A stretch of DNA of 64,000 bases, taken from assembly GCA_951406725.2 (NCBI GenBank), contig OX597825.1:82646001-82710000 (forward strand), given 5' to 3'. The position numbers were made by a program, and so were the translations under genes. Positions 1 to 43,500 of the stretch are shown piece by piece (positions within the stretch are counted from its first letter, which is position 1; each line of letters opens with the position of its first letter). The notes under the pieces were generated by a model. The model was not told the origin of the DNA. It made no database searches and saw only the letters and a list, made by a program, of their open reading frames with translations. The stretch is from Octopus vulgaris (lineage: Eukaryota).

Positions 1-215
1 TAAACATATAAATGTGAAACAAGGTGGAAAAAAGAGTACTCAAATACCAGTGGTAGAGTAATATGCTTTATTTAAAGCAGCAGAAAATTCAACAAAACCT
101 GTTACTCTGAGTTTCACGTTCCCGTTCGTCGGACAGTTTTTGCTATGTCCGACGAACGGGAACGTGAAACTCAGAGTAACAGGTTTTGTTGAATTTTCTG
201 CTGCTTTAAATAAAG
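1..215. mobile_element. Penelope pLTR-like element, head-to-head inverted pair (70-bp perfect arms 66-135/146-215)
   Basis: Perfect inverted repeat with a 10-nt loop; each arm has a hammerhead-like motif; followed by (TA)n; same family recurs at 38330-38527. Confidence 0.75.
99..136 (-). ncRNA. minimal hammerhead ribozyme motif (U4C core variant)
   Basis: Minus strand reads CUGU-CCGACGA-ACG(GGAA)CGU-GAAA-CUC-A-GAG-UA-ACAG: stem I CUGU/ACAG, stem II ACG/CGU, near-palindromic stem III, GUA triplet; mirror copy on + at 146-181. Confidence 0.65.
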
Positions 216-619
216 TATATATATATATATATATATATATATATACATACATCGTTGATAGTATGTTAAACTGTCGTATGTCCAAATTTGGCCAAATGCG
301 TTTCGTTCAATATTTATTTTTGCTTCTAATAATCAGTACTTTTGCTCAAACTATCCGTATCTCCCACTACTTCAGATGCCAAGATATCAAAAATTACCAA
401 AGTGTAGTATAATGGTTCTGCTATGGAAAATATGGTAAAACGATTTTCTCGTTCTCGGAAAAAGTAACTCGTAGTTTCACTCGTACACACACACACACAC
501 ACACACACACACACATCAAACACACACACACACACACACACACACACATATATATATATATATATATATATATATATATTATATATATATATACATATAC
601 ATATACTCACATTATTGTT

Positions 620-1600
620 CCTGTCCATTGACGAGATATAAGATATCCGCGTTTCTAACGGGACTGCTCTCTTTGAGTCCTCGAATCATATGCGAACTAC
701 TTCGGCCAAAAGCTACCCATCTTCCAGCACCCATTTTGCACGATTTTTCCCTCTCCATTCTTTGACCTGAACGGGAATGAACATTCTGATAGCTGATTTG
801 GTGAGAGTGATGAAGATTGTGTCACGAATATGCGATCATAAAGGAACTGGAGAGACGGATGCAACACTTTATCCACCGCTACAACCAAAGGGAGAGCATT
901 AAAGTGTACAAAGGAGCCAGGATTGCAAAGCCATCATAGAGAGTTATGCTAACGGTATCTGCCCGCTGTACAGGACTAAATCTTGGAACATCACGGAAAG
1001 GACCAGTGATAAGACAGATACGGTCATAATTTGCAATGAAAACCAAAAAATACCAGAACGTCATGTTCGTTGATGCTACCCTTGCTGGCGAACTAGCACA
1101 TCTTTTTAGAAAAAAAAACATTAAGGCTGATCTACGAATCAAAGTAGTAGAGAGGCCTGTTGCCCCTTTAAATTCCTAGCTCTGCAATACCTATTCCTTT
1201 GATAGGAACAATTGTGTTGTACGTAGGATGAACCCACAAGTTAACTGTAAGGTTAAGAACGTTGTGTAAAGTCTACGATGTACTGAGGGACGGTGCAGAA
1301 ACCGCCTACCGAGGAGAGACTACACGCAGCATAGGAGAGCGTAGAGGTGGACATTAGCCAGAGGCCAACGAAGGGAGAAGCGCGTCAGTGCTCTACCAAC
1401 ATACTCTGGAAGAACATGGAGGCTTGACTAATAGCATAGAGGTTAAAGCACTATCAACACGTAGAACTGACACGACACTTGGGCAGATTCCAGAAGCTAT
1501 ACACATAACAGTAGAGAGAGACCGACTGTCAATAGAAAACATGAATGGAAAAGCAATACACATCGCCACCACACCACATGCCTAGAGACAGTAGTGATGT
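620..1600 (+). pseudogene. Penelope-like retroelement ORF 3' remnant (RT thumb/linker + GIY-YIG endonuclease)
   Basis: Frameshifted peptides NILIADLVRVMKIVS, HRYNQRESIKVYKGA, GICPLYRTKSW, VMFVDATLAGELA..IKVVER, NCKVKNVV*, AYRGETTRSIGER, SVLYQHTLEEH..GQIPEAIHI..NRKHEW. Confidence 0.85.
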
Positions 1601-1974
1601 GAAGAGAGAGGGAAAGAAAAGAGAGAAAAGATCCGTAAATTATACACAGAAACTTATAGGGTAATACACACACAATAGACATGTATGCAATTACCTGTGA
1701 TACCTATTAGAAATAGAGACAGATGTATAAAAAAGTACATATAAAAATATATAAATAGATAAATATTTTAATAAAACTATATAAAGGGTATGGATACATA
1801 CGAAGAGAACCCGTACACACCCACACAAGCACACACACATGAAACTTCTTGGAAGGCCATAACGATGTCGACAAAATACCTGTGTATATACATATATATA
1901 TATATATATAAGACCAAAAGGGTACGGGCGTCGCTGTATATATATATATATATATATATATATATATATATATA

Positions 1975-2357
1975 CTAGCAGTATCGCCCGGCGTTGCTCA
2001 GGTTTGTAAGGAAATAACTATAAAGCATTTTTAGAGAGTTATAGCCAAAAAATAGCAAAAAATGGAAAAAAAATGATGGTAAATTTTTTTTTTGAGAGTT
2101 AAAAAAGGTGGAGTTGCGTCCCCTAGACGGTCTGTGGTTTGGGTTTCTGATTCTCGACCCCATGTCGAATTTATCGATTTTTTCAGAACTGGGGGAACTT
2201 TTCAAAATTTTCGCTGCGTTAGTTTTGAATTATGACATTGGGCTATGTGTTTGTCAAGTTTCATCAGAATCGGTTGAAAGCCGTGGTCAGAGTGAGGGTA
2301 CGAGAAAACAGACACACAGAAAACGCACAGACAAACTGCCGTTTATATATAGAGAGA
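1975..2357 (-). mobile_element. non-autonomous Helitron, body type 1
   Basis: Minus strand starts TC and ends GAGCAACGCCGGGCGATACTGCTAG (subterminal hairpin + CTAG), inserted at A^T within (TA)n. Confidence 0.75.
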
Positions 2358-40609: not shown

Positions 40610-41112
40610 GAGATATTATTATTTCTAAGTCTCTCTAACGGAGACTACGCAGCGGTACTGGATATTAATAGTTATCGCCAAGTTAATATGGCAGTCCATA
40701 CATATAGGACGTAAGCTGCCGTTGATAAGATCTAAGAGGCCAACGCCAACGCTTCTAGCTATCTATATGACACACGAACCTGTGTCCATTATAACCTTCG
40801 AACAGAGGGGGGCAGCCGTTTTTGAAAACTAGTGGATGTATTCGACTGAAATTAGGTAAATAGTCCTTCGAACAGACGGTCAGCAGCGACGCCTGCTGGG
40901 TTCGGCTACTCTGCATTGATAAAGGTAAAATACCATGTCTGTAGATGCCTGACCAGCAAGGTGAAGCTGCTGACCCCCCTGTTCGAAGGCTATAATGGAC
41001 ACAGGTTGGTGTGTTATATAGCTAGCTAGAGACGATGGCCTCTTGGAGCTAATCAACGGCAGCTTTAGTCATATATTTAAGGACTGCCATATTAATTTAG
41101 CGATAACAGTTA
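40610..41112. mobile_element. asymmetric foldback element inserted in the Tigger remnant
   Basis: ~145-bp imperfect arms 40669-40816/40969-41109; 12-bp direct repeat ATATATAAAACA at 40598-40609 and 41113-41124. Confidence 0.75.
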
Positions 41113-42189
41113 ATATATAAAACAATTTAGCCGAAATTATTCTAAAGTGTATTTATGAAATACAAGGGTCATTTAATGCTGATGAGACAAGTTTATTTTG
41201 CAGGAGATTGGTTGACAATGCATACGAGGTTAACATACAATATTTCCAGTATAAAACAATTGAGAATGAATCAATATTATTTGTTGGTGGCAAACATTAA
41301 GGTTCACTAATGTTTGTTAATCACTGTTTAAAATCTAGATTTTTAAAATGGAGCTAAAAAACGGTAATATTGAAATGCATTGAAAAGAAATATGTTTTGC
41401 TGTAGGTTTGTTTCGTTTTCTTGTAGTTAAAAAAACTACGTGACAGGAATAATTTATGAGTTAAGCCATTCTTAGTTTTAGATTATGCCTCTGGTTATTA
41501 TAAGGTAATTTTTCTGGAATTAAAGCTGTATTTTTGAATCGAAATAACAGAACATATATTCACTTCATCCTTCAAAGTGTAATAGCAATCTTCAAATTTT
41601 ATTACAAAGTGATAAGTGTTAAGCAGGATTTCTAGGCAAATCAGAAAAATAGGGCTAATTTAAAGAATAAATGCAATTATCTGGAGTACTATTAGTAATA
41701 GCGGAGTCTTTTACGGTGAAGTAATGGAAGCTGTTAAAAATTGTCAAAAGAAAAAAAAAAGAAAACAGAAAAAGAAAAGATAAACCAAGATTCAATAGCA
41801 AATTTGAAATGCTTTGTGGCTACTCCGCACCTGTCACAGAAGAAGATGTTCAGCTTAAAAATCACCTTAATTAATCAAGTCACTACCTGCATGATGTAAT
41901 TACTTCTAATTCAGAGATTAATCAATTTGACTTGCAAGCCTCTACGTTAATGAACTAATTACATCACATTCAGAGTCAAAGATCAACGAAACGTTGATTG
42001 AGACTAAGGAAGGAAAATAAATATGATTATCACTAACATGACATCACTCAGGTCAATCTATTGACAGTGATTTAAATGAATAAAGATCTTGCACGGATTT
42101 AACACTTCTTAAAAATTGTGGGTGATATGCCCCAAACGCAGAAAGAATGTCATAGGTCCGTAATCTATTGATAAAGATTCCAGCCATAA

Positions 42190-42420
42190 GGCGTCGAGCT
42201 GGCAGAACCGTTAGCACGCCGGGCGAAATGCGTTGCCGTATTTCGTCCTCCGTTACGTTCTGAGTTCAAATTCCGCCGAGGTTGACTTTGCCTTTCATCC
42301 TTTCGGGGTCGATAAATTAAGTACCAGATGAATACTGGGGTCGATGTAATCGACTTAATCCGTTTGTCTGTCCTTGTTTGTCCCCTCTGTGTTTAACCCA
42401 TTGTGGGTAATCAAGAAACA
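42190..42420 (+). mobile_element. SINE family A
   Basis: Full head, core and tail; TSD-like aagattccagc/aagattcaagc. Confidence 0.85.
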
Positions 42421-43295
42421 AATCAAGATTCAAGCTAAAATGGACCCCTTCATCAAGATATAAAAATTCTAGGAACGTCTTAATAGTTTTTTAATGAAAA
42501 TTGATAATTAGTCGATATAAAATGCTGTATATATAAATGTATAGTTTTCTTATTTCATAAAAGTTTTTCTCGGAGAGATATATTTTCAAAACGGTTGGAA
42601 TTCCAGAGACGTTTGGGTGGAAATAAAAACTTATACAATTGTATTTATTGTTTATTGCGTGAGAATTCACAAATGATACGATGCAGTACACGGTAAATAT
42701 TTGGAACAGAACTTCTAATATAGATGTATATATATATATGTATATATACATATATATCCTTTGCTCTTTAAATTTTTTAACTAATAGACTGTGGTCATGC
42801 TCGACCACCACATACATTATATATATATATATATAAATATATATATATATATGGAGAGTTTACGAAAAAATCAAAAGACAAAGACAGGTACTGTACACAC
42901 ACACACACACACACACATATATATATATATATATATATATATGAACATAATCAAAAAGGGTAATAACATAGGTTATTATTACCAGTGGCCTAGCACAAAA
43001 GACGAATTAGTCATTAGACAAAATATTATTCATATAGAAAAATATTATTCATATAGAAATATAATAAAAGGCTCCCAAATAAGGAAGCTTAGTGCTAGAG
43101 ACACAAATAGGGATAAATTCATGGAGAGAGTGAAAATCAAAAACATTTACCATTAACGATATATCCCGGACTGATCAGTTTCTACCTTTTTCCAGCAAAA
43201 ACGATCTAGTATATATATATATATATATATATATATATATATATATATATATATATATATATATATATATATATATATATATATATATATATATA

Positions 43296-43500
43296 CAGTT
43301 CAAATTTACAGAAAACAAAAGACGAAGACAAGTGAAAGAGCAGCAAGCAAATGTATTTATTTAACGCTCGGGGAGAATGGGAAAGTCTTTGATGTATCGA
43401 ACCTACGCTCTTCGACGGCGAGTATTAAGATGGGTAAAAATGGAGACGGAATGAAAACAAAGACGGAGAGAAAAATAATGTGTAGCGATTTATTGAGTGT
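43296..43500 (-). mobile_element. degenerate pLTR-like element
   Basis: CCGUCGA-A-GAGC(GUAG)GUUC-GAUACAUC-AAAGAC at 43385-43420; abuts (TA)n. Confidence 0.55.

What the first reader, a model, noticed from the sequence alone, without database searches (positions are those of the whole stretch)
61..43420. Multiple short (TA)n-associated element families each carry a minimal hammerhead with a different non-canonical core
Seen: motifs with hammerhead topology (stem I, 7-nt core, stem II hairpin, GAAA, very short palindromic stem III, NUH, stem I) at 99-136(-), 146-181(+), 4638-4672(-), 5423-5459(+), 10913-10950(+), 11645-11692(-), 11711-11760(+), 15273-15310(-), 17152-17190(-), 30218-30255(+), 30427-30461(-), 31998-32032(-) and 43385-43420(-). 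Stem II sequences are unrelated between families (ACG/CGU, GAGC/GCUC, GUUGC/GCAAC, GGCUA/UAGCC) yet pair. Cores are CUGAUGA, CUGAAGA, CCGACGA, CUGUUGA/CUGUGGA and UUGAAAA. Established: Penelope-like pLTRs carry minimal hammerheads that can work as dimers through a palindromic stem III. Inference: a diverse non-autonomous ribozyme-bearing retroelement system mobilised by GIY-YIG PLEs, with core variants fixed per family rather than random decay.
Basis: partly seen in the sequence, partly recalled or inferred. Interest (0 to 1): 0.85.

Follow-up and report, generated by a model that had tools for sequence, protein, structure and literature searches.

The report
Retrotransposon hammerheads with fixed altered cores
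These motifs are hammerhead-ribozyme sequences at the ends of Penelope-like retrotransposons, and one very successful family carries U in place of a normally invariant core A in about 19,000 copies, which likely makes it a slow but still selected ribozyme (cleavage untested).

Summary
All 13 motifs are present, and the intact ones are beyond chance. They fall into five repeat families. Four (A, B, C, E) are 3' terminal-repeat (pLTR) ends of RT/GIY-YIG Penelope-like elements: Neptune-type for A and E, Hydra-type for B. They are not separate non-autonomous families. The fifth (D) is an old retrozyme-like unit with a canonical, non-minimal hammerhead. CUGAUGA and CUGAAGA are canonical cores, and UUGAAAA is a published U3:A8 covariant. 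Two variants are lineage-level. Family A has A6U in 19,347 of 23,049 genome matches, against 257 canonical, and in both pLTRs of full-length copies. U4C is in 8,964 of 15,291 family-E matches and in about 4 in 10 listed family-B matches. In copies picked blind to the motif, family A varies mainly at N7 and H17, the two positions hammerheads leave free, so the fold is still under selection. Published mutagenesis predicts low activity for position-4 and position-6 changes. Best reading: attenuated dimer hammerheads. Cleavage was not tested. My searches found no natural A6U in print, but the closest paper (Lunse 2017) could not be read. Verdict: new variant of a known kind.

The parts
1..215 (.). 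Family B (Hydra-type PLE) 3' end in the inverted arrangement: tail-bearing minus arm (1-145) and plus arm (146-215); begins 6 nt before the window, (TA)n on both sides
99..136 (-). Family B hammerhead, core CCGACGA (U4C subfamily), 2-3 bp stem II, near-palindromic stem III, predicted cleavage after GUA
146..181 (+). Family B hammerhead, inverted twin, core CCGACGA
4486..4672 (-). Family C PLE 3' end; hammerhead 4638-4672 decayed (CUGAAAA; family state UUGAAAA); a diverged opposite arm follows to about 4760
5137..5470 (+). Family D retrozyme-like unit of about 330-360 nt, circularly permuted; canonical-core hammerhead at 5423-5459, decayed
10783..11047 (+). Family A (Neptune-type) solo 3' pLTR inside (TA)n, 98% identical to the pLTR of full-length copy L183
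10913..10950 (+). Family A minimal hammerhead, core CUGUUGA (A6U; U6 at 10921), palindrome ACGU, predicted cleavage after 10945
11596..11900 (.). Family D inverted pair; hammerheads 11645-11692(-) with canonical CUGAAGA and 11711-11760(+) with copy-specific C3U
15176..15387 (-). Family A pLTR; hammerhead 15273-15310, CUGUUGA, GUA site
16999..17189 (-). Family C 3' end; hammerhead 17152-17190, UUGAAAA (U3:A8)
30155..30331 (+). Family A pLTR; hammerhead 30218-30255, CUGUGGA, U16.1C decay
30333..30536 (-). Family E (Neptune-type, sister of A) pLTR-length unit; hammerhead 30427-30461, CCGACGA, G12A decay
31874..32106 (-). Family E pLTR-length unit; intact hammerhead 31998-32032, CCGACGA (U4C)
38328..38525 (.).
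43315..43420 (-). Old family A pLTR; heavily decayed hammerhead 43385-43420

Best explanation
The motifs are the terminal-repeat hammerheads of several Penelope-like retrotransposon families, left as truncated ends in (TA)n, and the A6U and U4C cores are inherited lineage states that likely give slow, dimer-dependent ribozymes still under selection. Shown: family membership, link to RT and GIY-YIG frames (A, B, E; endonuclease remnant only for C), two identical A6U motifs 4.5 kb apart in full-length family A copies, and the conservation pattern. Inferred: on a transcript spanning both pLTRs the two motifs pair through the ACGU palindrome to build stem III and cut after GUH. The altered core would slow this enough that most RNAs keep their 3' end for target-primed reverse transcription at (TA)n, while a minority are trimmed or circularised. 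Family D is a separate retrozyme-like passenger with an ordinary hammerhead.
For: A6U: 19,347 CUGUNGA, 257 CUGANGA and 526 CUGCNGA among 23,049 matches whose core was left free, so A6 and C6 sit near background-decay level. Full-length L183 and L191 have CUGUUGA in both pLTRs around RT/GIY-YIG frames; the L183 pLTRs are 100% identical over 207 nt. Motif-blind sample (found with a 3'-flank profile; 36 copies after dropping 1 of 37 that was truncated inside the motif): the ten catalytic-core positions are 92-100% conserved, U6 is in 32 of 36, N7 takes all four bases (14/10/8/4), and H17 is A/U/C and never G (0 of 34). Only 3 of 36 motif columns fall under 85%: N7, H17 and one CpG cytosine. By contrast 44% of 71 flank columns fall under 90% although the flank was used for selection. 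Stem I has one double-sided change between A and E (C-G against G-C). Stems are unrelated across families yet pair. In runs from two other coded organisms the motif is the most deeply covered part of the pLTR. Literature: PLE minimal hammerheads cleave weakly and only as dimers (PMC4209133); natural A6C keeps low, Mn2+-favoured activity (PMC3088659; PMC7151607); U4C suffices for viroid infectivity (PMC3088659).
Against: No cleavage assay and no raw RNA reads. In a complete double-mutant scan of one type III hammerhead, all CUGA-region mutants except the C3:G8 swap had low activity (PMC9901934). There is no pile-up of insertions starting at the predicted cut: 1 of the first 100 listed (hand count). 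Loop II is conserved too, which catalysis alone does not require. Covariation inside A+E is a single event inherited by many copies. No fully intact ORF was seen among the fetched copies. A small CUGAGGA group inside the A radiation and an older CUGAUGA group show A6 remained possible. Most other hammerhead families sampled are canonical or U3:A8 (16 of 32), so slow cores are not required for PLE success.
Confidence: 0.55

Rival explanations
1. The A6U (and U4C) motifs are catalytically dead. The sequence is kept because the fold or sequence has a second job, such as RT/endonuclease recognition, internal promoter or splice signal, or a template-switch site.
For: CUGA mutants are near-inactive in published scans. 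Cervera 2014 allows functions other than cleavage. Naiads thrive without canonical hammerheads (PMC8557442). CUGUUGA copies are predicted to fold into a rod that buries the core and the ACGU palindrome (-10.8 against -8.4 kcal/mol; core paired 0.82 against 0.28 for CUGAUGA). 5' ends and inversion junctions cluster just upstream of the motif in B (15 of 25 loci within 22 nt) and C (21 of 25 within 30 nt).
Against: The free positions are exactly N7 and H17, with G absent at 17, which is the catalytic signature and not expected of a generic hairpin or promoter. The rod is weak in CUGUAGA copies (0.43) and also forms in canonical CUGACGA copies (0.63), so it is not specific to U6.
Confidence: 0.25
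2. A6U is a fully competent alternative core in its own context, rescued by the dimer fold, the extra A after A9, a metal preference, or the PLE protein.
For: U6 has persisted across lineages whose endonucleases differ by about 30% (L046, 69% identity), and reversion is rare. A6C stays fast in Mn2+.
Against: No compensating change is visible: the rest of the motif equals that of the A6-bearing sister family E and of the natural A6 copies. Canonical PLE minimal hammerheads are themselves slow.
Confidence: 0.12
3. One reading: a set of separate non-autonomous ribozyme retroelements mobilised in trans by PLEs.
For: Family E copies share a sharp 5' start about 85 nt upstream of the core (only 5 of the first 100 listed extend more than 30 nt further; hand count). 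B and C show similar boundaries. D is a permuted unit of about 330-360 nt with no ORF found. Retrozymes derived from pLTRs are described (10.64898/2026.07.22.740005).
Against: A, B and E motifs sit in sense downstream of RT/GIY-YIG frames and C downstream of an endonuclease remnant. A6U is in full-length elements and U4C is in an ORF-linked E copy (L334).
Confidence: 0.07
4. The variant cores are post-insertion decay or chance look-alikes.
For: About half of the 13 window copies do carry private damage.
Against: Genome-wide counts. U4C creates a CpG, so decay would run towards the canonical base, not away from it. Shuffle controls.
Confidence: 0.01

Closest known systems
Minimal type I hammerheads of Penelope-like element pLTRs (Cervera and De la Pena 2014, PMC4209133; Lunse, Weinberg and Breaker 2017, not readable here)
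   Same: Located in pLTRs, mostly as solo truncated ends; U-rich 5' flank; extra nucleotide after A9; G10.1-C11.1; palindromic ACGU in place of stem III; many families per genome. UUGAAAA occurs in their Schistosoma mansoni family 4 (supplement part 2).
   Different: Their consensus is CUGANGA or U3:A8. No U6 or C4 core appears in the part of the alignment I read or in a supplement search (one file not searchable). Here U6 is the lineage state of the largest family examined.
Neptune-clade PLEs (as defined in Craig et al. 2021, PMC8557442)
   Same: RT with DKG and YIDD, CX2-5CxxC linker, C-terminal GIY-YIG with internal CxxC, pLTRs, microsatellite targets (families A and E).
   Different: Non-canonical hammerhead cores; long CT- or CA-rich 3' UTRs.
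Hydra-clade PLEs (Craig et al. 2021, section 11)
   Same: Family B: WK motif, no CCHH, CxxC and CxH motifs, (TA)n insertion, inverted copy plus one-sided tail.
   Different: Subfamilies with U4C; stem II of only 2-3 bp; the inspected copy has one linker cysteine replaced.
Natural core variants A6C (phage Bcep176), U4C (viroid), U3:A8 (Perreault 2011, PMC3088659; Naghdi 2020, PMC7151607)
   Same: Same core positions altered; low but real activity reported.
   Different: Those are single rare sequences stabilised by tertiary contacts. Here U6 and C4 are amplified to thousands of copies in minimal, dimer-type motifs.
Metazoan non-LTR retrozymes (Cervera and De la Pena 2020, PMC7229834; Li et al. 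2026 preprint)
   Same: Family D: about 330-360 nt non-coding unit, canonical type I hammerhead, circular permutation.
   Different: Old, dispersed monomers; no tandem array seen; no circular RNA shown.

Membership tests
PLE pLTR minimal hammerhead | Three-part topology: stem I, stem II hairpin, GAAA, palindromic stem III remnant, NUH | tested here: met
   (A, B, C, E)
PLE pLTR minimal hammerhead | Located in the pLTR of an RT/GIY-YIG element, sense strand | tested here: met
   A; B; E; C: endonuclease remnant only
PLE pLTR minimal hammerhead | Core CUGANGA or the UUGANAA covariant | tested here: not met
   Not met for A (A6U) or for the U4C subfamilies of E and B; met for C, D, most B and about a quarter of E
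PLE pLTR minimal hammerhead | Self-cleavage as a dimer | not testable with these tools
   No assay; the listed runs are contigs only
Neptune PLE (A, E) | RT followed by CX2-5CxxC linker and C-terminal GIY-YIG | tested here: met
Neptune PLE (A, E) | Placement in the Neptune clade, as against Nematis, on an RT tree with named references | not tested
   No named reference set was fetched; the clade name rests on motifs in PMC8557442 and on recall
Hydra PLE (B) | RWK-type motif, no CCHH, CxCX5C linker, CxxC and CxH, (TA)n targets | tested here: met
   linker reads C-x-F-x5-C in the one copy inspected (L182)
   A, B, C, E have ORF-linked members; met so far for D only
Non-LTR retrozyme (D) | Short non-coding unit with canonical type I hammerhead | tested here: met
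Non-LTR retrozyme (D) | Tandem arrays and circular RNA | tested here: inconclusive
   One permuted copy and one terminal redundancy; no array in 13 loci; RNA not testable

The most novel reading that the evidence does not exclude
A natural hammerhead lineage has replaced the 'invariant' A6 of the uridine turn with U and still cleaves in vivo, with successful Penelope-like elements tuning their own ribozyme down (A6U once, U4C twice independently) as an evolved brake on self-cleavage.
Probability: 0.35. Interest if true: 0.75.

Novelty: new variant of a known kind. Interest (0 to 1): 0.5.

Why it matters
The role of hammerheads in Penelope-like elements is an open question; Craig et al. 2021 call it unclear and even suggest they may be parasites of the element. 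This genome offers natural matched pairs with the same stems and different cores (U6 against A6 in family A; C4 against U4 in E and in B), each amplified to known copy numbers, so rate can be set directly against success. If A6U cleaves, the hammerhead consensus used in all descriptor searches misses tens of thousands of motifs in one animal genome. If it does not, a dead ribozyme conserved base for base points to a non-catalytic job in retrotransposition.

Tried and rejected
Rfam scans: no usable hammerhead hit. Alternative register for family A (core read three bases later): stem II then fails to pair, and sister family E fixes the homologous register; rejected. Insertions starting at the cleavage site as a fossil of in vivo cutting: no peak, 1 of 100; this neither shows nor excludes cleavage. 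Idea that weakened cores are enriched among short pLTR-only copies: in B, 84 of the first 100 long copies are canonical against 56 of 100 overall (hand counts), but the long-copy pattern is subfamily-biased and within the CCGAUGA subfamily the long fraction is similar; not supported. U6 as a designed self-lock: not specific. First count for C (111 matches) used a wrong stem-I anchor and was replaced. Boundary values for A and the long values for E are unreliable (poly-T gaps, (TA)n matches) and were not used. One row (L178) was given on the wrong strand and is ignored. The tree includes the core columns and 20 loci picked for a canonical core, and left out 32 of 181 rows (near-identical top hits); it is used only qualitatively. 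No RNA holder listed. The A6U pattern had 0 matches in metagenome contigs. Pfam found RVT_1 in 2 of 4 frames and no GIY-YIG; GIY-YIG rests on motifs and on homologue annotations.
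Full report
OBSERVATION. The window is AT-rich, microsatellite-dense animal DNA from a 2.8-Gb assembly. I take the host to be an octopus-like cephalopod from recall of its SINEs; no call names it. 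All 13 motifs are at the stated places. A strict descriptor recovers 5 of 13 with one core change and 0 with a canonical core, against 0.45 per shuffle. Self-comparison and genome searches sort the sites into five families: A (10913, 15273, 30218, 43385), E (30427, 31998), B (99, 146), C (4638, 17152) and D (5423, 11645, 11711).

FAMILY A. The 10783-11047 unit has near-identical copies genome-wide. 20 of the 30 best-matching loci carry RT or endonuclease sequence within 1.5 kb upstream in sense. L183 and L191 are full-length: two same-strand motifs 4,504 and 4,507 nt apart, both CUGUUGA, around RT/GIY-YIG frames. [quoted passage not shown] No fetched copy had a wholly intact frame. With the seven core positions left free the pattern matches 23,049 times (control 0); CUGUNGA accounts for 19,347, CUGCNGA 526 and canonical CUGANGA 257. 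The canonical copies are partly single mutants inside U6 groups (one inverted twin pair differs only there, L270) and partly small groups: CUGAGGA nested among U6 copies, and an older CUGAUGA group whose endonuclease is about 64% identical. Sister family E has A6, so U6 is probably derived; the tree is weakly rooted.

IS THE FOLD STILL SELECTED? To avoid circularity I built a profile from the 3' flank alone and searched 1.15 Mb of loci not fetched with family-A queries, plus the window. Of 37 copies one was truncated inside the motif and dropped. In the other 36 the ten catalytic-core positions average 96% conservation, U6 is in 32, N7 takes all four bases and H17 is A, U or C but never G. Only N7, H17 and a CpG cytosine fall under 85% among 36 motif columns, whereas 44% of flank columns are under 90%. 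In contigs of two other coded organisms the motif has roughly two to four times the summed depth of most of its flanks, and no other letter reached 5% at U6 in any of the four runs. That absence is weak, because common N7 variants were not listed either. Stem I shows one double-sided change between A and E; stem II is invariant there (16 distinct of 18 hand-picked rows).

FAMILY E. 15,291 matches, 8,964 with CCGANGA; 23 of the first 100 listed are canonical (hand count). U4C makes a CpG, so it is not deamination decay. Long copies lead through a CA-rich UTR into a Neptune-type RT/EN 52-67% identical to A: L334 with CCGACGA, L335 and L337 with CUGACGA. Most copies begin within a few bases of one point about 85 nt upstream of the core; 5 of the first 100 extend more than 30 nt (hand count). 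That suggests pLTR-only RNAs copied in trans (inference).

FAMILY B. 7,645 matches; 56 canonical and 38 CCGANGA in the first 100 (hand count). Long inverted copies hold an RT/EN with Hydra-clade motifs; the ORF-linked copies I saw are canonical. The window element is the published PLE arrangement of an inverted truncated copy with a one-sided tail (PMC8557442 Fig. 2 legend).

FAMILY C. 2,593 matches, 79 of the first 100 UUGAAAA (hand count). Two long copies have a GIY-YIG remnant 0.7-0.95 kb upstream (E about 1e-8); the clade is undetermined. U3:A8 is published for PLEs, including the same UUGAAAA.

FAMILY D. Old and diverged (13 exact stem-II matches). The core is canonical, stem III is a 5-bp palindromic hairpin and stem I is 6 bp with an extension. 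The window copy is a circular permutation of a unit of about 330-360 nt. No linked ORF was found in 13 loci and 8 extensions, apart from one weak hit 2.6 kb away. It is retrozyme-like.

GENOME CONTEXT. In 600 kb of evenly spaced stretches, 32 hits: 10 CUGANGA, 6 UUGANAA, 6 CUGUNGA, 3 CCGANGA, 2 CUGCNGA, 5 other. Many further families with unrelated stems are canonical.

MECHANISM. Shown: location, inheritance, conservation. Inferred from PMC4209133: two motifs on one RNA pair through ACGU and cleave after GUH, slowly. Every genomic copy with a whole motif upstream of the cut site came from an RNA that was uncut or religated there, and no peak of insertions starts at the cut. Published data predict that U6 and C4 lower the rate. 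I therefore favour an attenuated ribozyme (0.55) over a dead fold with another job (0.25) or a fully competent variant (0.12). Folding predicts a competing rod for CUGUUGA, but it is not specific to U6.

LITERATURE SEEN. PMC4209133: parts 1-2 of 4 of the text, supplement part 2 of 3, and a supplement search (one file not searchable). PMC3088659: passages and section 8. PMC8557442: passages and section 11. PMC7151607: parts 1-2 of 4. 10.64898/2026.07.22.740005: parts 1 and 3 of 5 (supplements closed). PMC9901934, PMC7229834, PMC6765202, PMC8490949, PMC13282606: passages only; the last, a repeat annotation of Octopus vulgaris, has no occurrence of 'hammerhead' or 'ribozyme' in its main text. Lunse 2017 and Arkhipova 2017: not held, known only from citations; either, or their supplements, could list these cores. 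Searches in which no listed paper appeared to report a natural A6U hammerhead (judged from listings, and from the passages above for papers opened): (20 of 56 listed).

VERDICT. Real, of a known kind, with one lineage-wide core change (A6U) that I could not find described and two independent U4C subfamilies. New variant of a known kind; interest 0.5.

Noticed in passing
B loci L116-L140 and C loci L350-L374: 5' ends and inversion junctions cluster just upstream of hammerhead stem I: 15 of 25 B loci within 22 nt and 21 of 25 C loci within 30 nt (some loci are twin arms or duplicates). This points to a transcription start or a reverse-transcription stop beside the ribozyme.
   Followed up: partly
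window 960-1560 (+): Frameshifted remnant that resembles by eye the GIY-YIG endonuclease of family C; not detected by the profile or tblastn searches.
   Followed up: partly
window 38328-38525: Family B inverted element with both hammerheads largely deleted, as expected from hairpin deletion.
   Followed up: partly
L278:2480-3880 and L228:4716: Another Neptune-like family with a UUGAAAA core and a different stem II, in inverted arrangement: a second U3:A8 lineage.
   Followed up: partly
L105, L107, L206: A family-E subgroup pairs a canonical or near-canonical core with G at position 17 (GUG), normally a poor cleavage triplet: possibly a third route to attenuation.
   Followed up: no
L220 and L245: Further hammerhead family with core CUGAAGA and a long palindromic stem III, three copies in the 600-kb sample.
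   Followed up: no
window 40662-41116: A 455-nt imperfect palindrome (73% self-complementary), non-microsatellite, probably an old MITE or fold-back insertion.
   Followed up: no
window 20755-21153, 27992-28386, 28767-29162, 49017-49413, 57011-57306: A repeat family of about 400 nt with five copies at 78-91% identity; its end motif looks Helitron-like (recalled).
   Followed up: no
window 11909-12319, 14112-14326, 25706-26005, 34958-35256, 42186-42418, 63077-63553: Abundant SINE-like family with internal 184-nt tandem duplication; cephalopod SINE by recall.
   Followed up: no
L188:1324-4482 (-): Open 1,052-codon stop-to-stop frame of a non-LTR retrotransposon with RT and a C-terminal nuclease-like region, unrelated to the finding.
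   Followed up: no
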